From Candidatus Rokubacteria bacterium 13_2_20CM_69_15_1 (GTDB taxonomy: Bacteria > Methylomirabilota > Methylomirabilia > Rokubacteriales > CSP1-6), in the NCBI GenBank assembly GCA_001914535.1, contig MNCR01000052.1, positions 3,791-67,790 on the forward strand: 64,000 nucleotides of DNA, in the 5' to 3' direction. The position numbers were made by a program, and so were the translations under genes. Positions 6,333 through 64,000 of this stretch are shown here, in pieces. Within the stretch, counting starts at the first letter, position 1, and the number at the start of each line of letters is the position of its first letter. The notes below the pieces were generated by a model, which was not told the DNA's origin, did not search any database, and saw nothing but the letters and a program-made list of their open reading frames with translations.

Positions 6333-6579
6333 GGTTGATCCCCTCCCTTCTCTGTCCGGTGAGACGCGGGTGGCATCGCCTCCGTGTACGTCGGCGTCGA
6401 AAAAAGGGCCCCTGGCCGAGGGCCGCCGTCACGGGAGCGCGCGTGTCAACGGGAACGCCGGTGGTCTCGTCTCAACGGCTGGAGGCAACGCATGAGCCTT
6501 GGGAGACAGACGCCGGCGGGGCCGGCGACGTGGCTGAATTTCGTCCGGGCCTTGTCCGTCCAAGCGTAGCGAGGGAGAG

Positions 6580-6954
6580 ATGAGAAAGTCAGCGGCGGTT
6601 CCGCTCCTGGCGATCGCGCTCCTTCTCGTTCCCGCAGTCCCGAGCCTTGCATGGCACGGGCATCGTCCCGGCATCCGGACCCGCGTCTTCGTCGGCGTCG
6701 GGCCCGCGTTCTGGTGGGGCGCGCCGTATCCCTACTGGCCGTATCCCTACTGGTGGTATGACCCGCCGTACTACGGCTACGCTCCGCCACCGGTCGTCGT
6801 CGAGCCCCCGCCGGTGTACGTGCAGCCGGAGCCGGCGCCGGCTCCGCCGCCGCCGCAAACGTACTGGTACTACTGCCCCAGCGCTAACGCCTACTATCCC
6901 AACGTAGCCACGTGTCCTGAGGCATGGGTCAAAGTCCCGCCGAGGCCTCAGTAG
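6580..6954 (+). CDS. Small secreted Tyr/Trp/Pro-rich hypothetical protein
   Basis: Signal peptide. YPYWPYPYWWY and PPP tracts. C-terminal YWYYCPSANAYYPNVATCPEAW with two Cys. Confidence 0.45.
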   Translation: MRKSAAVPLLAIALLLVPAVPSLAWHGHRPGIRTRVFVGVGPAFWWGAPYPYWPYPYWWYDPPYYGYAPPPVVVEPPPVYVQPEPAPAPPPPQTYWYYCPSANAYYPNVATCPEAWVKVPPRPQ

Positions 6955-6972
6955 AGAGGAGTCGGTCCACCC

Positions 6973-7524
6973 ATGATGCAGAAGTCGTCCGTCCTTCCTG
7001 TCGCCGCCGGGCTAATCATGGCCGCATGCGCGACGATTCCCACCGGGCCGAGCGTAATGGTGCTTCCAGGCAGCGGGAAGCCCTTCGAGCAGTTCCAGGC
7101 AGATGACGCGGTCTGCCGCCAGTGGGCGGCGCAACAGACGGGGACGACGACGGAGCGGGCGTCGACCCGGAGCTCCGTGAGCGGAGCGGCCATCGGGACG
7201 GTGCTCGGAGCGGCTGCCGGGGCAGCGGTGGGCGCCGCCGCCGGGAGTCCAGCGACCGGGGCGGCGGTGGGTGCGGGCGCCGGTTTGCTCGGTGGGACCG
7301 CAGTCGGCGCGAGCAACGCCTGGGGCGCGGAGGCATCGGTGCAGCACCGGTACGACATGACCTACATGCAGTGCATGTACGCCAAGGGCAACCAGATCCC
7401 GGTCAGAGGCTCCCTGCCGACGTACACGCGGCAGCCGGCCGCGACAGCACCGGCTCCGGTTCGCGTTCCACCTCCACCGCCGCCCGGACCTCCGCCGCCC
7501 CCGCCGCCCGGGCTTTCGCGGTAG
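6973..7524 (+). CDS. Glycine-zipper lipoprotein-like protein with proline-rich tail
   Basis: Lipobox-like LIMAAC. Gly-zipper GAAIGTVLGAAAGAAVGAAAG. Conserved C-terminus YMQCMYAKGNQIP. Poly-Pro tail. Confidence 0.5.
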   Translation: MMQKSSVLPVAAGLIMAACATIPTGPSVMVLPGSGKPFEQFQADDAVCRQWAAQQTGTTTERASTRSSVSGAAIGTVLGAAAGAAVGAAAGSPATGAAVGAGAGLLGGTAVGASNAWGAEASVQHRYDMTYMQCMYAKGNQIPVRGSLPTYTRQPAATAPAPVRVPPPPPPGPPPPPPPGLSR

Positions 7525-7566
7525 CGCGCTCATCGAGCAGAGCGGGAAGGCGATGACCCGAGGGAT

Positions 7567-8154
7567 GTGTCAACCAGGAGGCGCCGGATTCGTCAATCAA
7601 GGCGGCTGGACGTGCTGATCGGTGACGCTCCGACCATCGCGGCTCGCTCGCCGACCTATGAGGAGCTCTTCGAGAGGCACGCGGGGCGTCTCCACCGTCT
7701 GTGCGGGCTGCTGCTCGCCGACCGCGACGAGAGCCGAGAGGTCGTGCAGGACGTGTTTCTCAAGCTTCATCAGGCACGTCGTCAGCCCGGTCCGCCGTGC
7801 GACTGGGCCGCGTGGCTGACGCGGGTGGCCGTCAACGCGTGTCGGGATCGCCGGCGCGCGGGTTGGTGGTGGCGGTTTCGGCGACAGAGCGATCGCGTGG
7901 AAGACGTCACGCTCACGAGCAAAGAGCCCACGCCCGAGGAGGCAGCTATCAGCAAAGAGACGTGGCACCGGATCTGGGCGGCCTTTCGCGGCCTGTCCGA
8001 TCGTCAGCGTGACGTTTTCGTCCTGCGACATCTCGAGGGCTGGCCGACCGACGCCGTGGCCAGCACGCTCGGCCTGACTCCGGGAAGCGTCAAGCGCCAT
8101 CTCTTCCGCGCCATCCGGCACCTTCGCACCGCGGCTGTCGGCGACTCGGCATGA
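7567..8154 (+). CDS. ECF-type RNA polymerase sigma-70 factor
   Basis: Region 2 (EELFERHAGRLHRLC...VQDVFLKLH) and region 4 (RQRDVFVLRHLEGWPTDAVASTLGLTPGSVKRHLFRA). Confidence 0.85.
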   Translation: MSTRRRRIRQSRRLDVLIGDAPTIAARSPTYEELFERHAGRLHRLCGLLLADRDESREVVQDVFLKLHQARRQPGPPCDWAAWLTRVAVNACRDRRRAGWWWRFRRQSDRVEDVTLTSKEPTPEEAAISKETWHRIWAAFRGLSDRQRDVFVLRHLEGWPTDAVASTLGLTPGSVKRHLFRAIRHLRTAAVGDSA

Positions 8155-8687
8155 GCCGGTGTCTGTCCGACGCGGCGCTGATTTCACTGCTGGCCGGCGA
8201 CGGCACCGCCGACGAACGCGCTCACATGACGGCGTGTGCCGCCTGCGGCGACCGCCACCGTCGTGTGGGCTCGGAGCTCACGACCGTGAGGCACGTTCTG
8301 CTCGCGACCGACCCGCCCCGGACGCGCGTGGTGGCCCGGACGCGGTCTTGGGCGATCGCCGCCGTCGCGGCCTCGCTCGTCGTCACGCTGGCCGTCTGGG
8401 GTCACGTCGCCATCCGAGGTCCGGACGCGCCGGGTCCGGCGGCGCGGCAACGTGCGGACCATGAGGCGTCCGTGCTCCTGACGGAATTCTCGCTGCCGAT
8501 GTTTTCGACCGACGGGCGCCTGGCCGCGTCCGTCCCGGATGTTGGGGTCCTAAGTCTCTCCGCCGACGCTCTCGACCGCGTCGCGGACTGCGAGTGGCCA
8601 GACTGGGCGGCGACGGCGGGATGCGATGAGACCGCGCACGTGGCCCGACTCCTCGATCTGTTCGAGGCGCCGGACACCGAGCTCTAA
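8151..8687 (+). CDS. Anti-sigma factor (zf-HC2 type, single TM)
   Basis: ATGA overlap with the sigma factor stop. HMTACAACGDRH matches the Hx3Cx2C zinc motif. One TM helix (AIAAVAASLVVTLAVWG). Confidence 0.65.
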   Translation: MSRCLSDAALISLLAGDGTADERAHMTACAACGDRHRRVGSELTTVRHVLLATDPPRTRVVARTRSWAIAAVAASLVVTLAVWGHVAIRGPDAPGPAARQRADHEASVLLTEFSLPMFSTDGRLAASVPDVGVLSLSADALDRVADCEWPDWAATAGCDETAHVARLLDLFEAPDTEL

Positions 8688-9295: not shown

Positions 9296-9577
9296 GTGAC
9301 GATGCCCACCGCGCGCGTCCGCCGAATCGAGCCCGAAGAGGTCGCCGCCGTCCTGACCGCGTTCATCAACACCAGCATCATGGCCCGCGGCCATCCGCTT
9401 CAGCCTGACGACGATCTCGAGCTCGCCGGTCTCGACTCCATGGCTTTGCTGAAGGTCCTGCTTTTCATCGAGGCCGAATTCGGGTTCTGGATCCCCGACG
9501 AGGACCTCGTCCAAGAGACCGTCCGCTCCCCCCGCACGCTGGCGCTCTACATCTGTCGACGTAGGCGCCAGGCCTAG
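9296..9577 (+). CDS. Acyl carrier protein (stand-alone)
   Basis: 93 aa. Phosphopantetheine attachment motif LAGLDSMALLKVLLFIEAEFG (the DSM variant of DSL). Confidence 0.7.
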   Translation: MTMPTARVRRIEPEEVAAVLTAFINTSIMARGHPLQPDDDLELAGLDSMALLKVLLFIEAEFGFWIPDEDLVQETVRSPRTLALYICRRRRQA

Positions 9578-9603
9578 CGATCCGGCTGGGCCGTACCCGC
9601 GCG

Positions 9604-10953
9604 ATGATGTGCCGGCCGCTTCGGAGATCTGTGAGAATGCCCGGCCGCCGGTTACCGTTGCGTGGCGCCGATCTCGTCCTCATCGCGATGCACTCGCTCT
9701 GCAAGGGCCGAGACGTGAGCAGCAACACGCTCCTGGTCGTCGAGTGCGACGGACCCATCGCCCCCGAGCGGATCCGCCGGGCCCTCGACCGACTCCTGGA
9801 TTTCTGCCCGTGGCCGGCCGCGCGACTCCGGCGGCCGTTTCCCTGGGGCCGGCTGCACTGGGCCGCCGGCCCGCGCGCCGCGCTGGTGCCTCCGCCCGTG
9901 CGTCATCGGTCCGTCGCCTCGCGCGAAGAGCTTCACGCGGAACTGGAATCGGAGCTCAGCTCGGTGATCGATCCGCGACGCGATCCGCCCCTGCGATTCT
10001 TGATCGTCGATTGCGGGCCGGAGCCGGCAAGGGGACACGGCGTTCTCGTGTTGACCTGGTTTCATCCCCTCATGGATCCACGAGGAGGGCAAAATCTGTT
10101 GAGGCACCTGGCTCGCTTCGACCAGGAAGAGAACCAGGCCACCCCGCGAGGCGCGCCCTGGGCGTTCACGCCGCAGCCGGATCCGCGGCCGCTCAGGGAG
10201 CGTGGGCGGCTGGCCCGTCAAAGCGTCCACTACATGCGAACGCTCACGGCTGTTGCCCCGGTGTCCCCGGGAACTGGCCTCATATCGCCTGGACGGGCCC
10301 GCTTCCGGCAGGAGAGCTTCGTCGAACGCGATCCCCAGGCCGCGGGCTCGCGCGCCATGCGAGAGATCTGCTGGCGCTTGGCTCTCGTGGGCCGCGCCAT
10401 GGCCGAGCTCTGGGAGCGGCGGGGGCTCCCGGACGTTCCCTTTCTCGTCCCGATCGCGGTGGACTTGCGGCCCAAGGGCGATCCGGGTCCGACCTTCGGA
10501 AACGTGCTCGCGTTCCACTTCGCGCGGTTCAAGCCCTCCGAGACCGCGAACGTGGCGGCCCTGGCGAGCGCCCTGCGCCGGCAGATGGCGGACGCCGTCC
10601 GCGACGGGCAGATCGAGGCCAACTCGGTGGCCATGGAATTTCTGCAATACCGCCCACTCTCGATGATGCTCCGAGACCTGCCCGGGACCTCGGAGCGAGA
10701 GACCTTCTCCTTCAACTGCGCCGACGTCATGGACTTTCCCGCGGTGCTCGGGTCCGCGTTCGGCCGCCGCATCGTCAACGCGTACCACGCTCCGGCCGTC
10801 CTTCCGCGGCCCGGGATCGGGGTATTCTTCAACCGGTGCGCGACCCGGTCGAATCTCGTCGTCTCGTGGATCGAGGGAGCCGCGGCCGAGGACGAGGTGG
10901 GGCGGATCGTCGAGGTCGTCCGCGAGGGCATGGGGTGGACGCGAATCCCGTGA
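9604..10953 (+). CDS. HxxxD-motif acyltransferase, condensation/WS-DGAT/PapA5-like (stand-alone C-domain-like)
   Basis: 449 aa, the size of a C-domain. The TWFHPLMDPRGG motif resembles the HHxxxDG active site. Sits beside the ACP and the ligase. The family assignment is tentative. Confidence 0.45.
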   Translation: MMCRPLRRSVRMPGRRLPLRGADLVLIAMHSLCKGRDVSSNTLLVVECDGPIAPERIRRALDRLLDFCPWPAARLRRPFPWGRLHWAAGPRAALVPPPVRHRSVASREELHAELESELSSVIDPRRDPPLRFLIVDCGPEPARGHGVLVLTWFHPLMDPRGGQNLLRHLARFDQEENQATPRGAPWAFTPQPDPRPLRERGRLARQSVHYMRTLTAVAPVSPGTGLISPGRARFRQESFVERDPQAAGSRAMREICWRLALVGRAMAELWERRGLPDVPFLVPIAVDLRPKGDPGPTFGNVLAFHFARFKPSETANVAALASALRRQMADAVRDGQIEANSVAMEFLQYRPLSMMLRDLPGTSERETFSFNCADVMDFPAVLGSAFGRRIVNAYHAPAVLPRPGIGVFFNRCATRSNLVVSWIEGAAAEDEVGRIVEVVREGMGWTRIP

Positions 10954-17474: not shown

Positions 17475-19811
17475 TCAGGCCTTGAGCTGGTCGCGGATCG
17501 GCAGGCGCCGGATGCGCTTGCCGGTCGCCGCGAAGATCGCGTTGCACAGTGCGGGCGCGATCGGCGGCACACCCGGCTCGCCCACGCCACCGAGCGGCGC
17601 GTTGAAGTCCCCGGGTATGAGGTGGACCCGGATCTCGCGGGGCGAGGCGTCCGTGCGCATGATCTCGTATGCGTTGTAGTTGTCTTGCTCCACGCGCCCC
17701 GCCTTGAAGCTGATCTCTTCCTTGGTGGCGAGGCTCACGCCCATGGTGCAGGCGCCCGCGAGCTGGGAGCGGACGCGATCAGGGTTGATCTGGGCGCCGC
17801 AATCCACCGCGACGTCCACTCGCGGAATCGCCAGCTCGCCCTTGTCGTTGACGAGAACTTCGACCACCGCGGCCACGTAGGTCACGAAGCTGTAGACGAC
17901 GGCGATGCCCTGCCCGCGGCCCTTGGGCAACGTCTTGCCCCAACCCGCTTCGCGCGCCGCGGTCTCGACGACGCGCCGCATGCGGCCGGTGTCCAGGGGG
18001 TACTGTTCCGGATCCTCGCCATGATTCCAGGTATCGCCCAGGGTCCGGGGGTCGATGCGTCGGGCGGGACCGATCAGCTCCAGCAAGAAGTCCTTGGGAT
18101 CGCGCCCCGCCGCCGCCGCGAGCTCGGCGACGAAGGACTGGACGGCGAAGGCGTGGGGAATGTTCGACACCGAGCGGAACCAGCCGATGCGGGTGTGGGC
18201 CGTGGCCTCCGGGTTCTCGACACGGACATTGGGGATCGCGAACGGTACGTTGACGGCGTTCATGCCGAGCTCGAATGGCGCCTCGTTCCTCGCCTCCGGG
18301 TTGAACGTGGACATGATCGTCGGCGCCACGGTTCGGTGCAGCCACGCCACCGGCTTCCCACCGGCGTCCAGTCCGGCTTCGAGGTGCTCGACCGAGACGG
18401 TGTGGTAGTAGGAGTTGTGCAGGTCGTCCTCGCGGGTCCACGTGACCTTGACCGGCGCGCCGCTCATCGCCTTGGAGAGCACGGCGGCCTCGATCATGAA
18501 ATCGGGCTTGGACTTGCGCCCGAAGCCACCGCCGAGCAGCGTGACATTGACCTTCACGTTGTCCGCCGACATCCCGAGCCGCTTCGCGATGCGGTCACGG
18601 GCGGCCTGCGGCGACTGGATGCAGCCCCACGCCTCGCATTTGCCCTGGACGATGCGCGCGGTCGCGGCGGGCGGCTCCATGGTCGCGTGGGCGAGATGCG
18701 GGATGTAGTATTCGGCCTCGACGCGTCTCGCGGCGCTCGCCATGGCTCCGTCAACGTCTCCATCGTTGCGGACCACCTTCCCCGGCTTGCGCGCCGCCTC
18801 CTCGAGGGTCGCCTTGAAGGCCGTGGAGTCGTACCCGGCGTTCGGGCCGTCGTTCCACTCGATCTTGAGCGCCTGCCGGCCCTTGATCGCGGCCCAGGTG
18901 TTGCGCGCGACGACTGCGACGCCGCCCAGTGGGTTGAACTCGGCGGGCGGCGGGCTCTGCTCGATTTCCACGACGCGGACAACTCCCGGCACCTTGAGGG
19001 CCTCCGCCGCATCGTACTTCGCGACCTTGCCTCCATAGACCGGCGGGCGCGCCACCACCGCGTAGAGCATGCCGGGGAGCCGAGTGTCGATGCCGTACTG
19101 GGCCTTGCCGCTCACGATGTTGGGGCCGTCGGCCAGCTTCAGCTCGCCCTTGCCGATGTAACGGAAGCGCGACGGATCCTTCAATCGCAGCGTGTCCCTC
19201 GGGGGGACCGGGAGCTTGGCCGCGTCCTTGGCGAGGGCGCCGTATCCGAGACGCCGCCCCGACTGGCGATGCACCACCTCGTGGTTCCGCGCTTCCACTT
19301 CGCCCACGGGCACGTTCCAGCGCGTCGCCGCCGCCGTTTCGAGCATCGTGCGGGCCGCCGCGCCGCAGCGACGCATCGGTTCGAAGAAATGGCGCGTGCT
19401 GCGCGAGCCGTCGGTGTCCTGGTTGCCGAAGCGCTTCTGGTCGCCTGGCGCCTGCGCGATGCGCACCCGCTTCCAGTCGGCTTCGAGCTCGTCGGCCACG
19501 ATCATCGGCATGCCGGTGCGAACGCCCTGCCCCATCTCGGAGCGGTGACAGACGATGGTCACCGTACCGTCCTCGCCGATGGCGACGAACGCCAGGGGGT
19601 TGTCGGTCCAGCCGTCGGGCATTCCATCTCGTCCATACTTGGGCGCGTCGGCCGCGCGCAGGGCCGCCGGGAACCCGACGGCGAGGACGAGCCCGCCGAA
19701 CGCGGAAGCTCCGATGAGAAACCCGCGACGGCTCACGTTGGCGAGCAAGAGCGGGCTGTCGGACGACGCGTCACTGGGGGCCGAGGTCATCGAATCGTGG
19801 GGCGCGCTCAT
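17475..19811 (-). CDS. Xanthine-dehydrogenase-family molybdopterin-binding large subunit with Tat signal (IorB/membrane-ALDH-like)
   Basis: ATG at 19811, MSAPHDSM..., 134 residues inside the 911-aa ORF. Twin-arginine motif [14 protein letters not shown]. Mo-hydroxylase domains. ATGA overlap with the 2Fe-2S subunit. Confidence 0.85.
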
Positions 19812-20275
19812 TGCGTCGCTCCTTTCTGGCCGGCCACACGCTGGATGGCGGCGCGAATTCGAGAGTAGGTGCCGCAGCGGCAGATGTTCCCGCTCATCGC
19901 CGCGTCGATGTCGGCGTCTGTTGGCTTGGGGTTTTGCTTCAGCAGCGCCGTGGCGGACATGACCTGGCCGGCCTGGCAGTAACCGCACTGGGGCACGCCG
20001 ACCTCGACCCACGCCGTCTGCACGGCTTTGCCCACCCGGTCCGCGCCGATCCCCTCGACGGTAGTGATCTTCCGTTGCGCCGCCGCCGAGATCGGCGTGA
20101 CGCACGAGCGCGTGGGTTGGCCATCGAGGTGCACGGTGCAGGCGCCGCACAGCGCGATCCCGCACCCGAACTTGGTCCCGGTCAATCCAAGGACATCGCG
20201 CAACGCCCACAGAAGCGGAGTGTCCGGAGCCACGTCCACTTGTTGCGTTTTGCCGTTCACGTTGAGCGTTACCAT
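19808..20275 (-). CDS. (2Fe-2S)-binding small subunit of molybdenum hydroxylase (CoxS/IorA-like)
   Basis: [12 protein letters not shown] and CGYCQAG...CRCGTY two-cluster motifs. 155 aa. Confidence 0.9.
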
Positions 20276-20383
20276 GTGTCCCTCCCTCAGGAGTGAGACT
20301 TCGCGGACCCCTGTCGAACGCGAGTTCAGCAGTTGCCCGCGGATGCCCGCGGGCTCGCGTGGTTTGGTGAGCTCATCCCCAAC

Positions 20384-20788
20384 TTACTCTGTCGCTGTGA
20401 CCGTCGCCTCGAACGGCGCCGCCCTGATGTCGAGCTCGCCGCCGTTATGGTAACTGAACCGAAACACCCCGTGCACGGTGTGGGTGCCGGCGCTCTTCGG
20501 CGTGACACCGACCGTGAAGACGATGCTGCCGTCCTGCACCGACCCGCGCACGACCTCCCGCTCGAACTCGACGCCATCGGAGGCCGCCAGTTTGATGATC
20601 CTGTGACGATAGGAGTCCGTGAGCCTGAATCCATCGCCCATCGAGATCGTCGCCACGATGACCGCCTTCTCGCCCACTCGGGCCGACGCGTTCTGGACGC
20701 TGATGACGAAGGAGGATTGCGCGTCGGCGCACACGACCCCCGTCAGGGCGACGACGGCCACGGCGAGACGCGACACGCGACGCGTCAC
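20384..20788 (-). CDS. Small secreted hypothetical protein
   Basis: GTG start after GAGG. Signal peptide RRVSRLAVAVVALTGVVCADA. Beta-rich, about 135 aa. No recognisable family. Confidence 0.4.
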   Translation of the reverse strand: MTRRVSRLAVAVVALTGVVCADAQSSFVISVQNASARVGEKAVIVATISMGDGFRLTDSYRHRIIKLAASDGVEFEREVVRGSVQDGSIVFTVGVTPKSAGTHTVHGVFRFSYHNGGELDIRAAPFEATVTATE

Positions 20789-20874
20789 CACCTCGGATCG
20801 TGCTCTCCGGATCGGGCGGGCCGGTTGCTCTGGGAGCAACCGGCTCGCCCGGTCGTACGGGCTCGTCGCGACGC

Positions 20875-22596
20875 CTATTTCGAGACCGCGAAGACCCAGA
20901 TGACGCCGCCCTGCGGCACGTCCTTGGGCCAGCCGAGGAGATCGCCGAGTAGACCCTGTTGGAATGCCGGGTCGACGCCCCAACCCGACACGACGCTCAC
21001 GTACTGGACACCGTCCACCGCGAAGGATGACGGCGGCGCGATGATGCCGGAGTTCGTGGTGAACTGCCACAACACCTTCCCCGTGCCCGCGTCGAAGGCC
21101 CGGAAATTGCGGTCATTCGTCCCGCCCGCGAAGACGAGCCCGCCGCCGGTGGTCAGAACCCCTCCCCAGCTCATCGAGTCGGGGTACTGGTGGCTCCACG
21201 CCCGCTTCCCCGAGTTGACGTCCCAGGCCTGGATCTCGCCGAAGTACTTCGCGCCCTTGTCGACGGTGAAGCCGATATCGGGGATGTCCACGCCCGTCCA
21301 CCACTGCCCCGCGACGTATTGCTGCACCTTGCCTTCCATGAACCCGCAGTGGTTATCGTTGGCCGGAATGAACAACCGCCCCGTCTTGGGGTTATAAGCG
21401 GCGTTCGGCCAGTCCTTGCCGCCCCAGAGCGACGGACAGAACTCGGCGCGCTTGCCCGTCTTTGGAATCCGCTCCTCGTGGTAGGCAGGACGTCCGGTCT
21501 GCTGATCGACGCTCCTGAACACGTTCTGCTTGACGTACGCGGTGGCGGACACGAACCCGATCCGCTCACGGCTCCGCTCCAGCAGGTACAGATAGCCGTT
21601 GCGCGCCGGGTGCACCAGTCCCTTGATCGTCCGCCCGTCCTTCTGATAGTCGATAACGAGCGGCGCATCCGGCTCGTCCCAGTCCCACGATTCGTTCCAC
21701 TGGTACTGGAAGTGGCCCTTCATCATGCCCGTCGCGGGATCGAGGGCGACGGTGGACGACGTGAAGAGGTTGTCGCCCGGGCGCTGATCTCCGAACCAGG
21801 GCGAAGCGTTTCCGGTGCCCCAGTACGTCAGCTCGAGCTCGGGGTCATAGGTGCCCGTCAACCAGACAGACGCGCCTCCGCGTTTCCAGGCCTCGCCCGA
21901 CCAGGTCTCGTGGCCGGGCTCGCCGGGGCCGGGGATGGTGTATGTCTTCCAGACGGGCTCGCCGCTCTGCGCGTCGAAGGCCTGAACGAAGCCCCGGACA
22001 CCGAACTCGCCGCCGGACACGCCGACCATGACCCTACCCTTCGCCACGAGCGGGGCGAGCGTCATGTAATAGCCGGTTTTGTAGTCCTCGACCTTCCGCG
22101 ACCAGACCTGCTTTCCCGTCTTGGCGTCGAGGGCGACTAGATGGCAGTCCAGGCTCGCCACGTATACCTTATCGCCGTACAGGGCGATCCCGCGGCTCGT
22201 GTTGTGCAGGGCCTTGAAATCCTCAGGCAGTTCCCGCTTGTATCGCCAGAGTAGCTTGCCGGTCTTCGCATCCAGCGCGATGACCTGACTGTAAGGGGTC
22301 GGGACGAACATCACGCCGTTGTTGACGAGGGGAGGCGCCTCGTGCCCCGAGTCCACCCCTGTCGAGAAGGCCCAGACGGGAGTCAACCTCCTCACGTTGC
22401 CGGCGGTGATCTGCGACAGGGGACTGTAGCCCCACCCCTGATAGTTGCCGCGGATCTGTAGCCAGTTCTCGGGTTCCGGTGTGACGAGCCGTTGATCGGT
22501 CACAGGGCTGTATCTGGCCTGAGCTACCGCCGTCACCGGCAGCACCAGAAGGCCAAGGACCGCTACGAGTGCCGCAAGGGCTCTGGTTGTCTTCAC
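20875..22596 (-). CDS. PQQ-dependent alcohol (methanol/ethanol family) dehydrogenase, periplasmic
   Basis: GTG at 22596 after a GGAGGAGG RBS. Sec signal peptide. Eight-bladed propeller W-motifs. NWLxxRGNYQGWGYSPL N-terminal signature. Confidence 0.85.
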   Translation of the reverse strand: MKTTRALAALVAVLGLLVLPVTAVAQARYSPVTDQRLVTPEPENWLQIRGNYQGWGYSPLSQITAGNVRRLTPVWAFSTGVDSGHEAPPLVNNGVMFVPTPYSQVIALDAKTGKLLWRYKRELPEDFKALHNTSRGIALYGDKVYVASLDCHLVALDAKTGKQVWSRKVEDYKTGYYMTLAPLVAKGRVMVGVSGGEFGVRGFVQAFDAQSGEPVWKTYTIPGPGEPGHETWSGEAWKRGGASVWLTGTYDPELELTYWGTGNASPWFGDQRPGDNLFTSSTVALDPATGMMKGHFQYQWNESWDWDEPDAPLVIDYQKDGRTIKGLVHPARNGYLYLLERSRERIGFVSATAYVKQNVFRSVDQQTGRPAYHEERIPKTGKRAEFCPSLWGGKDWPNAAYNPKTGRLFIPANDNHCGFMEGKVQQYVAGQWWTGVDIPDIGFTVDKGAKYFGEIQAWDVNSGKRAWSHQYPDSMSWGGVLTTGGGLVFAGGTNDRNFRAFDAGTGKVLWQFTTNSGIIAPPSSFAVDGVQYVSVVSGWGVDPAFQQGLLGDLLGWPKDVPQGGVIWVFAVSK

Positions 22597-22663
22597 GGTC
22601 GTCCCCTCCTCCTCGGATCGGGTTTGTACGACTGAAGCGCGGTGCGGTGTAGAGAGAGCTCCC

Positions 22664-23293
22664 TCATAGGCGTTCGCCTCCGACTCGGCCCGTGAACTCA
22701 CCGGCCACCGTCAAGACGCCGTCGACCGTCTTGATGGGCAGCATAGGGAGCCGCCGAGGCGCAGGCCCATCGACGACGCGGGCGCGGTCCCGGGGGTCGA
22801 ATTGGGTCGCGTGGCAGGCGCAGAAGAGCGTCTTTGCCTGGGCTTGCCACATCGAGACCGTGCATCCCTGATGCGTGCAGACCGCCGAGTACGCCACGAC
22901 GCCGTCTACCGCGAGCGGCCGAGTCTCGTCGGTGAGCTGCGTGGGATCCAAGCGGATGAGCGCCGCCAGGTTGAGGGTCGACCCGTTTCGCACGATCTTC
23001 GCGACAGGGTCCATCGGGTAGGCGAGCTGTTGAGGCCCGCCCAACGGCAGGTCCTCCGGCGTGACGATCTGACCCTCCTTGTCGCCGAACGCGAACACGA
23101 GACGATCACCCTCCTGTGGCCGGGCCGTCCTCGGATCGTCGGCCCGGGCGAAGGCGCCGTCGGGGACAGACAAACACAGCCCCAGCCCGATGGCCGCCGT
23201 CAAGAATGCGCGACGCCCCTGGGCACGATCCCGAGAGTTGCCGGCGCGCCCTCCGGGGGGATCGCCGCATGAAGTCCGGCGCGCGAGCCTCAC
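22664..23293 (-). CDS. Rieske (2Fe-2S) protein with Tat signal
   Basis: GTG at 23293 after AGGAGAGG. RRAFLTAAIGLGL twin-arginine motif. CTHQGC...CACH Rieske boxes. Confidence 0.75.
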   Translation of the reverse strand: MRLARRTSCGDPPGGRAGNSRDRAQGRRAFLTAAIGLGLCLSVPDGAFARADDPRTARPQEGDRLVFAFGDKEGQIVTPEDLPLGGPQQLAYPMDPVAKIVRNGSTLNLAALIRLDPTQLTDETRPLAVDGVVAYSAVCTHQGCTVSMWQAQAKTLFCACHATQFDPRDRARVVDGPAPRRLPMLPIKTVDGVLTVAGEFTGRVGGERL

Positions 23294-23557
23294 GGTGCCT
23301 CTCCTCTGGTTTTGTGGGTATGGGCACATCTCAAGCGACTTGGCCACCACTCGGCGCCATCCCCTGGTGGCGTCGTGGAGACAGCTGTAGACACCAACGC
23401 ATAGACCCGAGCATCGCCTTCTGTCAAGTAGGAAAAGGCGACCCCAGTCGTTTCGCGTGTTCCCGCACGGCCAACCTCGACTGGACGTACGTGCGCCCTC
23501 CTGCGATGATCGCCCCGGAGCGCGCCGGTCGTTACCGGGGCGGAAAGGGGACACGTC

Positions 23558-23983
23558 ATGAGCGTGCCGGGGAATTCATGGACGGCAAACTGGGGGCCGG
23601 TTCCCCTCCGGCTCGTCGTCGGGCTCGTCTTCGTCGTTCACGGCGCTCAGAAGCTTTTCGTCTTCGGTCTCGGCGGTGCTGCGGGCTTCATGGGCAAGGT
23701 TGGCATCCCGCTGCCCTTCCTCGCGGCGGGGGTCGTGACCGCCGTGGAGCTGCTCGGAGGGTCGGCGCTCATCCTTGGCTGGGGCACTCGATTGGCAGCG
23801 GCTCTCCTGGCGTTCGACATGCTCGTGGCCATCCTGGTCGTGAAGCTCGGCGCGGGCTTCGTGGGTGGTTACGAGTTCGAGCTCACGCTACTTGGCGCCT
23901 GCCTGAGCCTGGCGCTCATGGGCGCCGGGCCCGTGTCGCTTCGTACGGTCTGCTCGCGTCGCGCGGGAGACACGGCGGGTTAG
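23558..23983 (+). CDS. DoxX family membrane protein
   Basis: 141 aa, four TM helices, DoxX-like LRLVVGLVFVVHGAQKL. Confidence 0.8.
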   Translation: MSVPGNSWTANWGPVPLRLVVGLVFVVHGAQKLFVFGLGGAAGFMGKVGIPLPFLAAGVVTAVELLGGSALILGWGTRLAAALLAFDMLVAILVVKLGAGFVGGYEFELTLLGACLSLALMGAGPVSLRTVCSRRAGDTAG

Positions 23984-44612: not shown

Positions 44613-45035
44613 TCAGCGCCGGATCATGCCGAAGCTGAAGCCTTTGACGAGGTGCTTCTGGATGAGGAAGCCGAGGATCACCACCGGGATCGTCACGACG
44701 GTGCCGATCGCCGCCTGGGGCCCGTAGAGACGCCCCTCCACCGCCGACTGGAACTTGTTGAGGAGGACGGGGAGCGTGAGCACCCTGGGCTGCGAGAGCG
44801 TGAGGGCCAGCAGAAACTCGCTCCAGTTCAGGATGAAGACGAAGAGCAGCGTCACCATCATCCCCGACGCCACGAGCGGGAAGACGACCTTGCGGATCGT
44901 GGCGAGCCGGCTCGCGCCCATCAGCCGCGCGGCGTGCTCGAGCTCGCGGGGCACCTCGTCGATGAAGGCCAGCATCATCCAGATGACGTAGGGCAGCGTG
45001 GTGGCGACGTAGAGGAGGATGAGCCCGTAGGCGGT
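44613..45035 (-). pseudogene. 5'-truncated ABC transporter permease (MalG-like); C-terminal about 140 aa only
   Basis: The EAA loop (EHAARLMGASRLATIRKVVFPL) and the last two TM helices are intact. The frame opens at a TGA at 45036-38 with no upstream permease coding in any frame. No start codon for a full-length protein. Confidence 0.6.
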
Positions 45036-52261: not shown

Positions 52262-52353
52262 CTCATAAGTGAGGGTTACCCACCGGTCCCGGTCGACTCA
52301 TAAGTGAGGGTTACCCACCGGTCCCGGTCGACTCATTAGTCAGGGTTACCGAG
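52262..52353. repeat. 35-bp tandem direct repeat, two perfect copies plus one degenerate: CTCATAAGTGAGGGTTACCCACCGGTCCCGGTCGA
   Basis: Seen directly. Overlaps the 3' end of the transposase ORF. Confidence 0.8.
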
Positions 52354-53579
52354 GCCATCGTCTGGGTGACGTCAGGAGAGGACTGCGCGCGGCGGGTGGC
52401 TATGGAGGGATCCCCGGCGGAGACCCGGGAAGGATCCGGCGCGGCCAAACGCCATAGCCGTTCCAGGGCGGCCTGCAAGTCGCGTTGGAGCTGCAGCGGA
52501 TTGAGGCGGTGATAGAGCGCGTCGAGCTCGGCGCGCTTGGCGGCGCTGAGCACCCCGGCTGCGCACAACCGCTGGTAGGGTGTCTGGGCACGGTCGAACA
52601 CCCGGTGGACGCGCGCGCCGGCCCACTGTTTCCGCACGAGCTTTTCGACGGGCTGGAAGAAGTTCACGTGCAAGCGGGCCAGCGCGTAGACCTGGGCGAG
52701 CTGGGCATAGGCGGCCTTGGACGTGAAGCGATCATAGCCGACGAGGTGGCGCACGATCGCGCCGTTCTTCTGCTCTACCAGCGCGCTGTCATTTTTCTTC
52801 CACGCCCGACCGCGCGTGAAGGTGATGCCCTCGCGCCAGCAGTAGTAGTACAAGACGCGGTTGATGAACTCGGATCCGTTGTCGGTGTCCAGCCCGGCCA
52901 GGGCCACCGGCAGCCGCGTGCGCACGGCCTGCACGCCGGCGGCGACCCGATAGTGGCCTTTGCCCCACAGCGCCTGCAGCTCGATCCAGCTCGTGGCCAC
53001 GTCGACCGCGCACAGGGTATGCAGGTAGAAGCCTTTCGTGCTGCTGCCGCAGTGGGCGACCAGATCGACCTGATAGAAGCCGGGCCGCGCATCGTCCCAG
53101 TCGGCGAACGTGCGGATGGGGATCTGTTGCTTGAGCCAGCTGCTCGGGTGGGTCGTCGCGGCGCCGCGCCGAGGGAACTGCGCCCGAGCCCCCTCGAGCA
53201 AGCGGGCCAAGGTCGGGCGACTGGCTTGCCGCACGAGCTTGTCTACGGCCGGGGGAAGGGTCACTTCGCCACACTGCACGAGCCGGTCGAGCAACTCGGG
53301 CACGAAGGGCTGCAGCCGGTGGGCCCCGATGCGCCCGCTCGCCTGCCAGAGTACGGCCGCGGCCGCCGCCACCTCCGGCCCATACTGGCGCGGGCGGCCG
53401 GAGCGTGGGCGGGCTGCCCCCGTCCTCGTCGCCCGCCGCAACAGCCGGATGGCCGCCTTGCGGTGCATGCGGGTTACTGCCACCATCTCGTCCAACAGCC
53501 GGTGCTTCTCGCTCCGGCTGGCCTGCTGGTACCGCTCGCGCTGCACGGCGGCGTACTCTCGCAAGCTGGCTCGCGTCAC
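52311..53579 (-). CDS. DDE-type transposase (integrase catalytic core; ISNCY/IS481-like)
   Basis: GTG at 53579 after AGGAGG. rve-like catalytic region (FYQVDLVAHCG...LDTDNGSEFINRV...ALVEQKNG). Confidence 0.8.
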   Translation of the reverse strand: MTRASLREYAAVQRERYQQASRSEKHRLLDEMVAVTRMHRKAAIRLLRRATRTGAARPRSGRPRQYGPEVAAAAAVLWQASGRIGAHRLQPFVPELLDRLVQCGEVTLPPAVDKLVRQASRPTLARLLEGARAQFPRRGAATTHPSSWLKQQIPIRTFADWDDARPGFYQVDLVAHCGSSTKGFYLHTLCAVDVATSWIELQALWGKGHYRVAAGVQAVRTRLPVALAGLDTDNGSEFINRVLYYYCWREGITFTRGRAWKKNDSALVEQKNGAIVRHLVGYDRFTSKAAYAQLAQVYALARLHVNFFQPVEKLVRKQWAGARVHRVFDRAQTPYQRLCAAGVLSAAKRAELDALYHRLNPLQLQRDLQAALERLWRLAAPDPSRVSAGDPSIATRRAQSSPDVTQTMASVTLTNESTGTGG

Positions 53580-53666
53580 GGCGGCCTCCTGGGGCGAATT
53601 GGTAACCGTGACTTCTGATCTACGAGCCTCCGTTCGGTAACCGAAATTTTGAGTTGATGCGGATTG

Positions 53667-53695
53667 TTGACACGTGCAAGGCTGCCTTATAGACT
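53667..53695 (+). promoter_or_regulatory. Outward-facing sigma-70-like promoter at the IS right end (TTGACA, 15-17 bp, TATAGACT)
   Basis: Consensus -35, and a reasonable -10, pointing toward genes at 53913 and 54389. Confidence 0.35.
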
Positions 53696-53912
53696 TGCCC
53701 TTCGTGAGAACGCGTTCGGACAATCCTCGAGCGTTTCGTCTCCCCGGTCGTGGCGTCTTCTGACCGCCGACTCAGCGCTCTAATCCGTCCGGCAGCACCA
53801 CGAGTCGTGCGAGATCCGCGGAGGTCTCTGCGCGATCACCGAGCGATCTCTGTCCTCGCCGGTGCCGGCTTGCCCGGCGAGACACGGCGATCCATATCGG
53901 GAGGTTTTTGAA

Positions 53913-63335: not shown

Positions 63336-63803
63336 TCACGCGCCCTTCAGCGATCGGATCAGGTCGAGGACGCGGAGAATCTCGCTGCCGCTCCGGACCA
63401 TGTGACGGTCGCCGGCCTGGCCCCAGCGCAGGAGCCCGTCACGATCGACGACGAACGTCGAGCGATAGGCCACGTTCCGCTCCGCGTCCCACGCCTCGTA
63501 CGCGCGCATCACCGTCCGATGCACGTCGCTGAGGAGCAAGAACGGAAAGCGGTGCCGCCGATGGAATTCCGCCTGCGAGAAGGGGCTGTCACCGCTGATC
63601 GCGAGGACGACGGCCTCGCGTTCTCCGAGGTGAGCGGCGACCCCCCCGAGGTCGCTCAGCTCCGGTGTTCAGATACCGCCCCAGTCGTAGCAGTAGAAGA
63701 GCAGCACGACCTCGGCCTTGCCCTGGAAGTCCGCGAGCGAGACGGGGCGGCCGCTCGTCGACGGCAGGGAGAACGCCGGCGCCGGGTGGCCGTAGCGGAT
63801 CAC
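63336..63803 (-). CDS. Bcp/PrxQ-like peroxiredoxin with in-frame TGA (63670-63672) at the peroxidatic-Cys position (candidate selenoprotein)
   Basis: The continuous frame VIRYGHPAPAFSLPS...VVLLFYCYDWGGI-[TGA]-TPELSDLGG... aligns with the Bcp motif FYPKDDTPGCTKE. A hairpin starts 11 nt downstream of the UGA. Confidence 0.5.
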
Positions 63804-63810
63804 GGGGTCT

Positions 63811-64000
63811 TCACCGACGCGAGGCGGCCTTCGCGATATAGCCGTAGCGGAGGTTCGAGCGCGCCGCGCCCGCCCGCTCGTACTCCGTCTTCATCGCCGC
63901 GATGCGATCTCCCGCGAGAGCCGCGCGCCGCTCGTACTTGTACAGGCGCGCGTTGGTCTCGCCGAAGATCGCGTTCTTGAGGGGGCCGTCGGCCGGCCCG
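63811..64000 (-). CDS. 3' end of an amidohydrolase-like gene (partial; start beyond window)
   Basis: C-terminal ...NAIFGETNARLYKYE... resembles amidohydrolase-2 C-termini. The stop lies just upstream of the peroxiredoxin start. Confidence 0.35.
   Translation of the reverse strand, partial: GPADGPLKNAIFGETNARLYKYERRAALAGDRIAAMKTEYERAGAARSNLRYGYIAKAASRR

What the first reader, a model, noticed from the sequence alone, without database searches (positions are those of the whole stretch)
63336..63803. Candidate selenocysteine peroxiredoxin: TGA replaces the peroxidatic Cys codon and is followed by a SECIS-like hairpin
On the minus strand the reading frame is uninterrupted from VIRYGHPAPAFSLPS... 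through ...LLFYCYDWGGI-TGA-TPELSDLGG... to the C-terminus. TGA (63670-63672) aligns exactly with the catalytic Cys of Bcp/PrxQ (FYPKDDTPGCTKE versus FYCYDWGGIUTPEL). Exactly 11 nt downstream of the UGA the mRNA forms a GC-rich hairpin (GAGCGACC-UCGGGGG-GGUCGC-CGCUC) with a G-rich apical loop. This is the spacing and form of bacterial SECIS elements. A plain stop here would leave a catalytically dead 44-aa peptide yet still a conserved downstream frame, which argues for readthrough as Sec.
Basis: partly seen in the sequence, partly recalled or inferred. Interest (0 to 1): 0.7.

Follow-up and report, generated by a model that had tools for sequence, protein, structure and literature searches.

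The report
Selenocysteine peroxiredoxin gene with rewired active site
This is a real gene for a small antioxidant-type enzyme (a peroxiredoxin) in an uncultured soil bacterium (Rokubacteria), in which a TGA "stop" codon is almost certainly read as selenocysteine. Selenocysteine peroxiredoxins are already known, but this clade has an unusual active site and public annotation cuts it into two fragments.

Summary
On the minus strand, 63803..63336 is one 155-codon AhpC/TSA (peroxiredoxin) frame, interrupted only by a TGA at 63671..63669. The finding placed it one base off.

- **Conservation of the TGA.** The same codon is TGA in 80/80 species-level relatives, mostly Rokubacteria/Methylomirabilota MAGs, and in at least 120 metagenome contigs. 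The same motif with TGY (Cys) has zero metagenome matches.
- **Coding on both sides.** Both flanks evolve as coding sequence. The four codons directly after the TGA are conserved (T/S/A-P-E-L), and in 77 of 81 genes they differ only by synonymous changes.
- **Alignment to Cys.** The TGA aligns without gaps to the peroxidatic Cys of solved Bcp/PrxQ and AhpE structures.
- **SECIS-like hairpin.** A 7-bp hairpin with a G-G-N loop lies 21 nt after the UGA. It is the only conserved RNA structure in the gene, shows compensatory changes, and meets the published bacterial SECIS criteria.

Two caveats remain. No selA/B/C/D genes lie in the window or near relatives, so the Sec machinery is inferred from neighbouring selenoprotein genes and from the literature. 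The universal PxxxTxxC motif is CxxxGxxU here (Pro→Cys38, Thr→Gly42), so the chemistry may differ from canonical peroxiredoxins.

Verdict: a new variant of a known kind, of moderate interest.

The parts
63336..63803 (-). Complete selenoprotein gene: 155 codons (GTG start, Sec at codon 45) plus the terminal TGA at 63338..63336. AhpC/TSA (peroxiredoxin) family.
   Evidence: frame. (Pfam PF00578, E=1.7e-32). (PDB Bcp/PrxQ and AhpE hits). (model of homologue P0001; all top PDB fold matches are peroxiredoxins, TM 0.73-0.78).
63801..63803 (-). GTG start codon. It lies 7 nt after the stop (63813..63811) of the upstream Amidohydro_2 gene. A GGTGA Shine-Dalgarno-like run at 63815..63811 overlaps that stop.
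   Evidence: Orthologues start at the same position with ATG (MLRYGH...). Public gene calls use this start.
63669..63671 (-). In-frame TGA, codon 45: the proposed selenocysteine codon at the peroxidatic-Cys position.
   Evidence: TGA in 81/81 orthologues. At least 120 metagenome contigs carry the TGA motif against 0 with TGY. Aligns to the peroxidatic Cys.
63638..63654 (-). Conserved SECIS-like hairpin core CGACCUC-GGG-GGGGUCG: 7 bp, starting 14 nt after the UGA.
   Evidence: RNAalifold consensus -11.4 kcal/mol. 98.2% of cells paired against 15-46% when the partner is slid, and 3 covarying pairs. It is the only conserved structure among 108 sliding windows of the gene. Reproduced in 109 independent metagenome sequences.
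63645..63647 (-). Apical loop GGG (family consensus G-G-N), 21 nt after the UGA.
   Evidence: First loop base G in 81/81; second base G in 69 and U in 8 of 81. This matches the G[G|U] rule of the bSECIS model (PMC13188914, Fig. 2 legend).
63632..63662 (-). Window-specific extension of the hairpin (lower stem GAGC...GCUC plus G17-C35).
   Evidence: MFE folds. Outer pairs are not maintained across orthologues.
63690..63692 (-). Cys38 codon (TGC). It occupies the position of the invariant Pro of the peroxiredoxin PxxxTxxC motif, is invariant in the family, and is the candidate resolving cysteine.
   Evidence: invariant C. (aligned to Pro of 2ywn, 2cx3 and 3hjp). The resolving role is inferred.
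63678..63680 (-). Gly42 codon (GGC), at the position of the catalytic Thr/Ser of PxxxTxxC.
   Evidence: alignment. (Gly conserved in the family).
63462..63464 (-). Arg114 codon (CGC): the conserved active-site Arg of peroxiredoxins is retained.
   Evidence: Invariant. Aligned to the Arg of the (A)(K)R-x-x-F-x-I-D motif.
63811..64000 (-). 3' end of the upstream gene, cut by the window edge: a 501-aa Amidohydro_2 protein in near-identical contigs. It is probably co-transcribed with the selenoprotein gene.
   Evidence: frame. (L083-L086 gene tables: PF04909 Amidohydro_2 ending 7 nt before the gene). (99.6-99.8% identity to the window).

Best explanation
The region is one gene for a 155-residue cytoplasmic protein of the peroxiredoxin family, from a Rokubacteria (Methylomirabilota) soil bacterium.

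**Recoding.** Codon 45 (UGA) is decoded as selenocysteine. A ribosome reaching the UGA meets, 14 nt downstream, a 7-bp G+C-rich hairpin with a G-G-N apical loop. This is a bacterial SECIS element. It would recruit SelB-GTP carrying Sec-tRNA(Sec), so Sec is inserted instead of release factor 2 terminating translation. This step is inferred from sequence and covariation, not shown biochemically.

**Catalysis.** Sec45 sits where peroxiredoxins carry the peroxidatic Cys, next to the retained active-site Arg114. It most likely attacks a peroxide, or another oxidised substrate, to give a selenenic acid. The clade has lost the canonical Pro and Thr of PxxxTxxC and has an invariant Cys38 in the Pro position. 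I therefore propose that Cys38 resolves the selenenic acid into an intramolecular Cys38-Sec45 selenenylsulfide, which a thioredoxin- or mycoredoxin-like reductant then reduces. This part is inference.
For: **One translated frame.**
- Frame and domain.
- TGA in 81/81 orthologues from different genomes.
- TGA in four independent assemblies 99.6-99.8% identical to the window.
- Purifying selection on both sides of the TGA: pN/pS 0.47 and 0.37 at equal pS.
- The first four codons after the TGA are conserved (T/S/A-P-E-L), with only synonymous differences in 77 of 81 genes. 64/81 genes have no start codon within 19 codons.

**Sec replaces Cys.**
- Gapless alignment of U45 to the peroxidatic Cys in PDB Bcp/PrxQ and AhpE.
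- The same alignment holds for dozens of distant Cys homologues (FYP..[ST]..C..E).
- Obligate TGA: 0 metagenome contigs with TGY in the family motif against at least 120 with TGA.

**SECIS.**
- RNAalifold and pair counts: pair 20:32 is AU 40 / GC 33 / GU 8 with no A-C. Pair 24:28 is GC 55 / CG 19, involving a synonymous Leu third position.
- It is the only conserved structure in the gene.
- It is reproduced in an independent metagenome set.
- It meets loop size, stem length, loop-G and 16-37 nt spacing criteria. Energy is at or below -7.5 kcal/mol in 73/81, and -8.5 in the window (criteria from PMC13188914).

**Lineage uses Sec.**
- The same contigs of relatives carry a canonical TxxU peroxiredoxin, an OsmC-related (seleno)protein and a UGSC-family (seleno)protein, each with an in-frame TGA.
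- Literature: Methylomirabilota are among the phyla that carry Sec-type hydrogenase variants, and selABCD was detected in about 90% of Sec-type genomes across all phyla studied (PMC13582414). One Methylomirabilota MAG is predicted to carry 63 selenoprotein genes (PMC13188914).

**No code reassignment.** TGA ends 21 of 35 strong ORFs in the window.
Against: - No tRNA-Sec, selA, selB or selD was found in the 64-kb window, in 80 genome loci or in 120 metagenome loci. The machinery of this particular genome is therefore unverified.
- Rfam gives no hit. I did not check whether Rfam holds a bacterial SECIS family, so this carries little weight.
- The hairpin in the single window sequence is not energetically exceptional for its composition (z = -0.42).
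- The catalytic Thr and Pro that define peroxiredoxin active sites are missing, so peroxidase activity is not assured.
- No NCBIfam peroxiredoxin equivalog reaches its cutoff.
- The Cys38-Sec45 proximity was not measured. The model was built on a homologue with Trp at the Sec position and has low confidence there (pLDDT about 52 for residues 41-50).
- No conserved reductant gene is linked.
Confidence: 0.85

Rival explanations
1. The protein is a selenoprotein as described, but it is not a peroxidase. The invariant Cys38...Sec45 pair (C-x6-U) would work as a selenol/thiol redox couple that reduces or isomerises disulfides or another oxidised substrate. This would resemble the 'Prx-like thiol:disulfide oxidoreductase' selenoproteins.
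For: The Pro and Thr that activate the peroxidatic residue and position the peroxide are replaced by Cys and Gly. All peroxiredoxin equivalog models score far below cutoff. Known Prx-like selenoproteins with a PF00578 domain are regarded as thiol:disulfide oxidoreductases (PMC13188914, Table 1; PMC2398784, Table 2).
Against: Sec sits exactly at the peroxidatic position, not at the UxxC position of the Prx-like families. The motif after it is U-T-P-E, with no downstream Cys. The active-site Arg114 and the Glu of the C-x-x-E motif are retained. The low pKa and high nucleophilicity of Sec could make Thr dispensable (established selenium chemistry; inference here).
Confidence: 0.25
2. The UGA and hairpin recode as described, but Cys is inserted instead of Sec. 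This would happen through a SelC*-type tRNA (tRNA-ReC) that is charged with Cys and delivered by SelB.
For: Such tRNAs are described, and were searched for in Sec-type hydrogenase genomes that include Methylomirabilota (PMC13582414, text on SelC*/tRNA-ReC). Sequence data alone cannot tell Sec from Cys at a SECIS-dependent UGA.
Against: If Cys were acceptable, TGY variants would be expected in such a large clade. None exists among metagenome contigs carrying the family motif, against at least 120 with TGA. Relatives carry several other classical selenoprotein families.
Confidence: 0.04
3. The TGA is a genuine stop. The locus would then be a pseudogene, or a split gene giving a 44-aa peptide and a separately initiated C-terminal fragment, which is how public annotation treats it.
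For: Gene callers split it into a 44-aa ORF plus a 57- or 107-aa ORF. Most database entries for the family are 90-108-aa fragments.
Against: The TGA is at the same codon in 81/81 genomes with no other disruption. The four codons directly after it are conserved, with only synonymous differences in 77 of 81 genes, and no start codon occurs within 19 codons in 64/81 genes. There is purifying selection on both halves and a covarying hairpin at SECIS distance. A fragment lacking strands beta1-beta3 and the active-site loop would not form a thioredoxin fold.
Confidence: 0.02
4. A sequencing or assembly error, or a reassigned genetic code in which TGA means Trp or Gly, explains the in-frame TGA.
For: JGI gene calls of five homologues show W at this position. 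That is what a code-4 translation would give.
Against: Identical TGA in independent assemblies and samples and in at least 200 contigs. TGA terminates 21 of 35 strong ORFs in the window, and only one in-frame TGA in 64 kb has coding signal on both sides and no restart after it. The W calls are on contigs of 0.9-1.4 kb, where code choice is unreliable.
Confidence: 0.01

Closest known systems
Selenocysteine-containing peroxiredoxin PrxU of Eubacterium (Peptoclostridium) acidaminophilum, and the 'Prx, PF00578, TxxU' selenoprotein family (Sohling et al. 2001, cited in PMC13188914; PMC2398784 Table 2)
   Same: An AhpC/TSA domain with Sec encoded by UGA at the peroxidatic-Cys position. A SECIS hairpin lies inside the coding region just downstream.
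   Different: The known family keeps PxxxTxxU, whereas this clade has CxxxGxxU. The NCBIfam PrxU model scores 50 bits against a cutoff of 270. The known family has abundant Cys homologues (7,348 against 253 Sec in GOS, PMC2398784). This clade has no Cys form with the same motif. It is restricted mainly to Rokubacteria/Methylomirabilota MAGs.
Archaeal and bacterial Bcp/PrxQ peroxiredoxins (PDB 2ywn/4g2e, 2cx3, 3hjp) and Mycobacterium tuberculosis AhpE (1xxu, 1xvw)
   Same: These are the best sequence matches among solved structures (E=1e-17 to 1e-14), with the same length of about 155 aa. The active-site alignment is gapless, the Arg is conserved, and the protein is a single domain. A model of a family member has the peroxiredoxin fold.
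   Different: They use Cys, keep Pro and Thr/Ser, and where they are 2-Cys enzymes the resolving Cys lies 5 residues after the peroxidatic Cys. Here that position is Ser, Thr or Gly, and the only invariant Cys lies 7 residues before Sec.
Prx-like thiol:disulfide oxidoreductase selenoproteins (PF00578, UxxC/UxxU), Prx-like UGC-containing proteins, and the cd02970 peroxiredoxin-like UxxS family (PMC13188914 Table 1; PMC2398784 Table 2)
   Same: Selenoproteins of the same Pfam superfamily with non-canonical active-site motifs and unknown physiological substrates.
   Different: Their Sec sits in a UxxC, UGC or UxxS motif. Here the motif is GxxU followed by T-P-E, so Sec is at the peroxiredoxin peroxidatic position rather than at the first position of a CxxC-like pair.
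Bacterial SECIS consensus (bSECIS model of Zhang and Gladyshev 2005, as summarised in PMC13188914 Fig. 2)
   Same: A 3-nt apical loop with G then G/U, a 7-bp upper stem, a 21-nt UGA-to-loop spacing, and a median energy of -9.1 kcal/mol. All values fall within the model's limits.
   Different: No conserved lower stem or bulged U like that of E. coli fdhF (my own knowledge, not tested here). The loop is at the minimum size of the model.

Membership tests
Bacterial selenoprotein gene (Sec-UGA + bSECIS) | In-frame UGA conserved at the same codon in orthologues | tested here: met
   81/81 TGA. At least 120 further metagenome contigs. Four near-identical independent assemblies.
Bacterial selenoprotein gene (Sec-UGA + bSECIS) | Sequence on both sides of the UGA evolves as one translated frame | tested here: met
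   pN/pS 0.47 upstream and 0.37 downstream. T/S/A-P-E-L is conserved directly after the TGA, with only synonymous differences in 77 of 81 genes, and no restart codon occurs within 19 codons in 64/81.
Bacterial selenoprotein gene (Sec-UGA + bSECIS) | UGA aligns with a redox-active Cys in homologues (Sec/Cys pair) | tested here: met
   It aligns with the peroxidatic Cys of PDB Bcp/PrxQ and AhpE and of distant homologues. No Cys form exists within the close clade.
Bacterial selenoprotein gene (Sec-UGA + bSECIS) | bSECIS: 3-9 nt loop, 4-16 bp stem, G in the first two loop positions, 16-37 nt from UGA to loop, MFE <= -7.5 kcal/mol | tested here: met
   Loop of 3 nt (G-G-N, first G 81/81), 7 bp, spacing 21 nt. 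Energy -8.5 in the window, median -9.1, and 73/81 at or below -7.5. Covariation at 3 pairs, and the only conserved structure in the gene.
Bacterial selenoprotein gene (Sec-UGA + bSECIS) | Genome encodes selA, selB, selC (tRNA-Sec) and selD | tested here: inconclusive
   None in the window or in about 1.8 Mb of relatives' flanks. Indirect support comes from other selenoprotein genes on relatives' contigs and from the literature on Methylomirabilota (PMC13188914, PMC13582414).
Bacterial selenoprotein gene (Sec-UGA + bSECIS) | Selenium actually incorporated at the UGA position | not testable with these tools
   Needs 75Se labelling or mass spectrometry.
Peroxiredoxin (AhpC/TSA, PF00578) | Domain match above Pfam's gathering score, and peroxiredoxin/thioredoxin fold | tested here: met
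   112.4 bits against a cutoff of 26. The AlphaFold model of homologue P0001 has pTM 0.77, and all top PDB fold matches are peroxiredoxins with TM 0.73-0.78.
Peroxiredoxin (AhpC/TSA, PF00578) | Peroxidatic Cys/Sec in the first turn of helix alpha2 (the C of PxxxTxxC) | tested here: met
   Sec45 occupies this column in gapless alignments.
Peroxiredoxin (AhpC/TSA, PF00578) | Conserved Pro of PxxxTxxC | tested here: not met
   Replaced by an invariant Cys38.
Peroxiredoxin (AhpC/TSA, PF00578) | Conserved Thr/Ser of PxxxTxxC | tested here: not met
   Replaced by Gly42, which is conserved in the family.
Peroxiredoxin (AhpC/TSA, PF00578) | Conserved active-site Arg | tested here: met
   Arg114 is invariant and aligned to the catalytic Arg.
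Peroxiredoxin (AhpC/TSA, PF00578) | Peroxide reductase activity | not testable with these tools
   Needs an enzyme assay.
PrxU equivalog (NCBIfam NF040737) and Bcp/PrxQ equivalogs (NF006960, NF053650) | Score at or above the curated cutoff | tested here: not met
   50.1 against 270, 52.1 against 140, and 51.5 against 260.
Atypical 2-Cys Bcp/PrxQ | Resolving Cys five residues after the peroxidatic residue (CxxxxC) | tested here: not met
   Position +5 is Ser in the window and Ser, Thr or Gly in relatives.
Prx-like thiol:disulfide oxidoreductase selenoproteins (UxxC/UxxU) | Sec as the first residue of a UxxC/UxxU motif | tested here: not met
   The motif is G-G-I-U-T-P-E-L, with no Cys or Sec at +3.

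The most novel reading that the evidence does not exclude
This is an obligately Sec-dependent peroxiredoxin clade in which the universal active-site architecture has been rebuilt around selenium. The Thr that activates the thiolate has become dispensable (Gly42). The Pro that packs against the peroxidatic residue has been turned into a new kind of resolving cysteine (Cys38), which forms an intramolecular selenenylsulfide seven residues upstream. That resolving-Cys position is not used by any peroxiredoxin class I know of (my own knowledge, not tested here). The absence of any Cys-form relatives would then mean the chemistry works only with Sec.
Probability: 0.3. Interest if true: 0.55.

Novelty: new variant of a known kind. 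Interest (0 to 1): 0.42.

Why it matters
**Annotation.** The gene and hundreds of relatives are deposited as two fragments. Examples are a 44-aa ORF plus a 107-aa 'peroxiredoxin family protein', or a code-4 translation with Trp at the Sec position. Recognising the Sec codon repairs the annotation of a widespread soil-bacterial protein. It also adds to the evidence that Rokubacteria/Methylomirabilota are heavy users of selenium.

**Mechanism.** The clade is a natural experiment. It shows which parts of the nearly invariant PxxxTxxC...R peroxiredoxin active site become dispensable or repurposed when sulfur is replaced by selenium. With no Cys variants at all, it also offers a clean case for asking why some enzymes become locked into Sec.

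**SECIS.** The very simple, well-covarying 7-bp hairpin with a GGN loop gives a usable SECIS consensus for finding further selenoproteins in this phylum.

Tried and rejected
- **Rfam.** The scan of the whole window gave no hit. I did not check whether Rfam holds a bacterial SECIS family, so I gave this no weight.
- **Single-sequence folding.** The hairpin region is not significant against shuffles (z = -0.42). I therefore based nothing on the window sequence alone and moved to comparative analysis.
- **First covariation tally.** It was run one base out of register because the finding's TGA coordinates are off by one. I redid it.
- **tRNA-Sec.** ARAGORN on the window, on 60 loci and on the 120 metagenome loci found none.
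- **selA/selB/selD.** tblastn with E. coli SelA, SelB and SelD against the window and all loci gave no hits.
- **Operon partner.** I looked for a conserved reductant or sel gene next to the family gene. The neighbourhood is not conserved: a divergent cupin-like gene in 36/81 loci and a MoxR-like ATPase in 25/81, with neither in the window.
- **Second in-frame TGA.** The candidate at 44613-44615 is an ordinary stop between an ABC permease gene and an ATPase gene lying in the same frame.
- **First pN/pS run.** A one-codon indel upstream spoiled it. I redid it on a codon alignment.
- I used an alignment of full-length homologues instead.
- **Literature gaps.** No paper held links Rokubacteria to selenocysteine directly. 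Deng et al. 2026 and Haft and Tolstoy 2025 are not held. The supplements of PMC13582414 are not held.
- **Structure model.** The model could only be built from a homologue with Trp at the Sec position and has low confidence at the active-site loop. It was used for fold assignment only, not for Cys38-Sec45 geometry.
Full report
**1. What is in the sequence**

Read on the minus strand, the stretch 63803..63336 is a single reading frame of 155 codons. It starts at a GTG (63803..63801) and ends at a TGA (63338..63336). The only interruption is one in-frame TGA.

That TGA lies at 63671..63669, one base lower than the finding states. It is codon 45.

The start lies 7 nt after the stop of an upstream gene, whose end overlaps a GGTGA Shine-Dalgarno-like run. 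In near-identical public contigs that upstream gene encodes a 501-aa Amidohydro_2 protein.

With Cys written at codon 45, the protein matches Pfam AhpC-TSA at E=1.7e-32 (112 bits, cutoff 26) over residues 5-127. No NCBIfam peroxiredoxin equivalog reaches its cutoff: PrxU scores 50 against 270 and Bcp scores 52 against 140.

**2. The TGA is real and conserved**

A search of 5.8 billion proteins returned about 860 relatives. Nearly all close ones are 90-108-aa fragments that begin just after the TGA position. The few full-length ones carry W at that column, as expected if a gene caller had switched to genetic code 4.

I fetched the DNA of 80 relatives from species-representative genomes. They are 61-84% identical at the protein level and almost all are labelled Rokubacteria/Rokuibacteriota/Methylomirabilota MAGs. 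Every one has TGA at the same codon inside the motif F-[YF]-C-[YF]-[DAS]-[WF]-G-x-I-TGA-[TSA]-P-E-L, which makes 81/81 with the window.

The exact 44-aa N-terminal peptide of the window is encoded in 63 blocks of the public assembly collection. Four contigs from different samples, including GenBank QHSS01000108.1, are 99.6-99.8% identical to the last 10 kb of the window and carry the same TGA. A sequencing or assembly error is excluded.

A reassigned code is excluded as well. TGA terminates 21 of 35 strong ORFs in the window. A scan for in-frame TGAs with coding signal on both sides finds only this one plus an ordinary gene junction.

**3. Translation continues across the TGA**

On a codon alignment of the 81 genes, synonymous divergence is the same on both sides (pS 0.48 and 0.46). 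Both sides are under purifying selection, with pN/pS 0.47 upstream and 0.37 downstream.

The four codons immediately after the TGA encode T/S/A-P-E-L. In 77 of 81 genes they differ only by synonymous changes (ACG/ACC/ACT/ACA, CCC/CCG/CCT/CCA, GAG/GAA, CTC/CTG). In 64 of 81 genes there is no ATG, GTG or TTG in the next 19 codons. A separately initiated C-terminal fragment cannot explain this.

**4. The TGA replaces the peroxidatic cysteine**

Against all PDB sequences, the best matches are archaeal Bcp/PrxQ (2ywn, 2cx3, 3hjp) and M. tuberculosis AhpE (1xxu and others). The alignment is gapless across the active site: FYCYDWGGI-U-TPE against FYPAAFTQV-C-TKE.

An exhaustive profile search of 1.8 billion cluster representatives shows that the nearest full-length relatives outside the clade almost all carry FYP..[ST]..C..E.

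A model of the full-length homologue P0001 (pLDDT 78, pTM 0.77) matches only peroxiredoxins at the top of a PDB fold search, with TM 0.73-0.78.

Pro becomes an invariant Cys38 and Thr becomes Gly42, while the active-site Arg114 is kept.

**5. The hairpin**

In the window alone, the fold of the 81 nt after the TGA is no better than shuffles of this 70% G+C sequence (z = -0.42). The single-sequence observation is therefore weak. The comparative evidence is strong.

- **Consensus structure.** On the gapless alignment of TGA plus 57 nt from 81 genes, RNAalifold predicts one hairpin. Columns 18-24 pair with columns 28-34, counting the U of UGA as 1, and the loop 25-27 is G-G-N.
- **Pair counts.** 98.2% of cells are paired, against 15-46% when the 3' partner is slid by 1-3 columns. 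Three pairs show compensatory change.
- **Pair 20:32.** It is A-U in 40 sequences, G-C in 33 and G-U in 8. It is never A-C.
- **Pair 24:28.** It is G-C in 55 sequences and C-G in 19. Here the synonymous third position of a Leu codon changes together with the first base of the codon after next.
- **Internal control.** Sliding a 36-nt window along the whole gene alignment (108 windows) gives a consensus structure only where this hairpin is included: -11.4 kcal/mol against -0.25 or weaker elsewhere.
- **Independent set.** 109 distinct metagenome sequences show the same pairs and the same covariation.
- **Published model.** The element fits the bacterial SECIS model as summarised in PMC13188914 (Fig. 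2): loop 3-9 nt, stem 4-16 bp, G in the first two loop positions (usually G then G/U), 16-37 nt between UGA and loop, and MFE at or below -7.5. Here the loop is 3 nt with the first G invariant and G/U second in 77/81. The stem is 7 bp and the spacing is 21 nt. The energy is -8.5 in the window, with a median of -9.1.

In the window the core is 63654..63638.

**6. No cysteine form**

A scan of 241 million metagenome records for the family motif with TGY at the critical codon found nothing. Within this clade the codon is obligately TGA.

**7. Sec machinery**

This is the weak point. There is no tRNA-Sec and no homologue of E. coli SelA, SelB or SelD in the window, in the 80 genome loci or in the 120 metagenome loci. 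Pfam annotation of the window's ORFs over 1-25.4 kb and 45-64 kb shows ordinary metabolic and regulatory genes.

Indirect evidence for the machinery comes from two sources.

- Relatives carry other in-frame-TGA genes of recognised selenoprotein types on the same contigs:
  - a canonical TxxU peroxiredoxin directly upstream in L001
  - an OsmC-related (seleno)protein directly upstream in L072
  - a UGSC-family protein in L005
- Published work reports that Methylomirabilota are among the phyla carrying Sec-type hydrogenase variants. selABCD was detected in about 90% of Sec-type genomes across all phyla studied (PMC13582414). One Methylomirabilota MAG is predicted to carry 63 selenoprotein genes (PMC13188914, citing Deng et al. 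2026, which I could not read).

**8. Mechanism**

Shown:

- One translated frame runs through a conserved UGA.
- A covarying hairpin lies at SECIS distance.
- The UGA sits at the peroxidatic position of a peroxiredoxin fold.
- Arg114 is retained.
- Pro and Thr are replaced by Cys and Gly.

Inferred:

- SelB-dependent insertion of Sec.
- Attack of Sec45 on a peroxide to give a selenenic acid.
- Resolution by the only invariant cysteine, Cys38, into an intramolecular selenenylsulfide.
- Reduction by an unlinked thioredoxin- or mycoredoxin-type partner.

The Pro of PxxxTxxC packs against the peroxidatic residue in known peroxiredoxin structures. This rests on my own knowledge and was not measured here. 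It is why a Cys at that position is a plausible resolving residue.

The main functional rival is that the C-x6-U pair acts as a general selenol/thiol oxidoreductase rather than a peroxidase. A minor rival is SECIS-dependent insertion of Cys by a tRNA-ReC-type tRNA. The complete absence of TGY forms argues against it.

**9. Comparison with what is known**

Sec-containing peroxiredoxins are established. PrxU of E. acidaminophilum is the experimentally verified example, and the 'Prx, PF00578, TxxU' family is abundant in ocean metagenomes (PMC13188914 Table 1; PMC2398784 Table 2). Several Prx-like selenoprotein subfamilies with UxxC, UxxU, UGC or UxxS motifs are also listed there.

The present clade shares the Sec position with PrxU but not the PxxxT context. 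It does not have the motifs of the Prx-like subfamilies. It reaches no curated NCBIfam cutoff, and it is annotated in GenBank only as fragments.

By the criterion of that review, subfamilies are distinguished by the Sec-related motif, so this would be a separate subfamily (GxxU, with C at -7). I could not check whether it is already listed in the unread Deng et al. or Haft and Tolstoy papers.

**10. Verdict**

The finding is correct and robust as a selenoprotein gene prediction. It is a new variant of a known kind. It is of moderate interest for its rewired active site, its obligate use of Sec, and the systematic misannotation of the family. It is not a new principle.

Noticed in passing
L001:2925-3509 (+), about 40 nt upstream of the family gene at L001:3547-4005: A second in-frame-TGA peroxiredoxin with the canonical motif GAFTPT-U-TRE (TxxU) and an N-terminal hydrophobic segment. 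It forms a tandem pair of Sec-peroxiredoxin genes in the window's closest species-level relative. The window has an Amidohydro_2 gene in that place instead.
   Followed up: partly
L072: roughly 9520-9969 (+), TGA at 9700-9702: An OsmC-related (seleno)protein (NCBIfam NF041052, 61.7 bits) with LLLAALGA-U-TSMT, directly upstream of the family gene. This is a possible functional pairing of two Sec-dependent hydroperoxide reductase types.
   Followed up: partly
L005:8096-9790 (+), TGA at 8438-8440: A UGSC-family-like N-terminal domain (NF041046, 63 bits, below its cutoff of 125) with GVGH-U-STC. It is fused to a C-terminal region of about 400 aa with no NCBIfam hit. This is a possible unusual fusion selenoprotein.
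   Followed up: partly
L040: around 18530, next to a tRNA-Ala at 18070-18152: A duplicated 3' fragment of the family gene (DVHRAVIRAYGVHDEERNVAYRSTFIVDREGVLRWGHAGDRDMF...) lies 8 kb from the intact copy, beside a tRNA gene. This may be the scar of an integration or rearrangement.
   Followed up: no
L083-L086 gene tables; proteins P0001, P0002, P0004, P0006, P0007, P0003, P0026: Public gene calls split the gene into a 44-aa ORF plus a 57- or 107-aa ORF. Five JGI calls have W at the Sec codon, as a code-4 translation on short contigs would give. Two 'src' catalogue proteins have L there, which I cannot explain.
   Followed up: partly
Loci L007, L036, L038, L039, L040, L046, L052, L071 (record titles): Contigs carrying this Rokubacteria-type gene sit in MAGs labelled Nitrosocosmicus (an archaeon), Binatia, Deferrimicrobiaceae, Limnocylindria, Myxococcales, Acidoferrum, Dormiibacterota and Verrucomicrobiia. 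This is probably mis-binning in the soil MAG catalogue rather than horizontal transfer.
   Followed up: no
window 54179/54180, and window 52311-53771 (-): Four near-identical public contigs carry about 51 extra bases at the point corresponding to window 54179/54180. Just beyond it, the window has an ORF with a weak integrase-core (rve) match (29 bits, cutoff 32.6). This may be a mobile-element boundary.
   Followed up: no
window 5952-7524 (both strands): A cluster of small ORFs encoding signal-peptide or proline-rich proteins (runs of PPPPPPP, a glycine-zipper domain). An ECF-type sigma factor and a probable anti-sigma ORF follow at 7525-8687.
   Followed up: no
window 17475-23575 (-): A molybdopterin-binding (aldehyde oxidase/xanthine dehydrogenase-type) large subunit, a PQQ-dependent alcohol dehydrogenase-type beta-propeller protein, and a Rieske-domain ORF lie in a row. 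This may be an oxidative catabolic cluster.
   Followed up: no
window 44613-44615 (-): A second in-frame TGA has strong coding signal on both sides. It is an ordinary stop between an ABC-transporter permease gene and an ATPase gene (MASIRLENLVKSFG...) lying in the same frame, not a Sec codon.
   Followed up: yes
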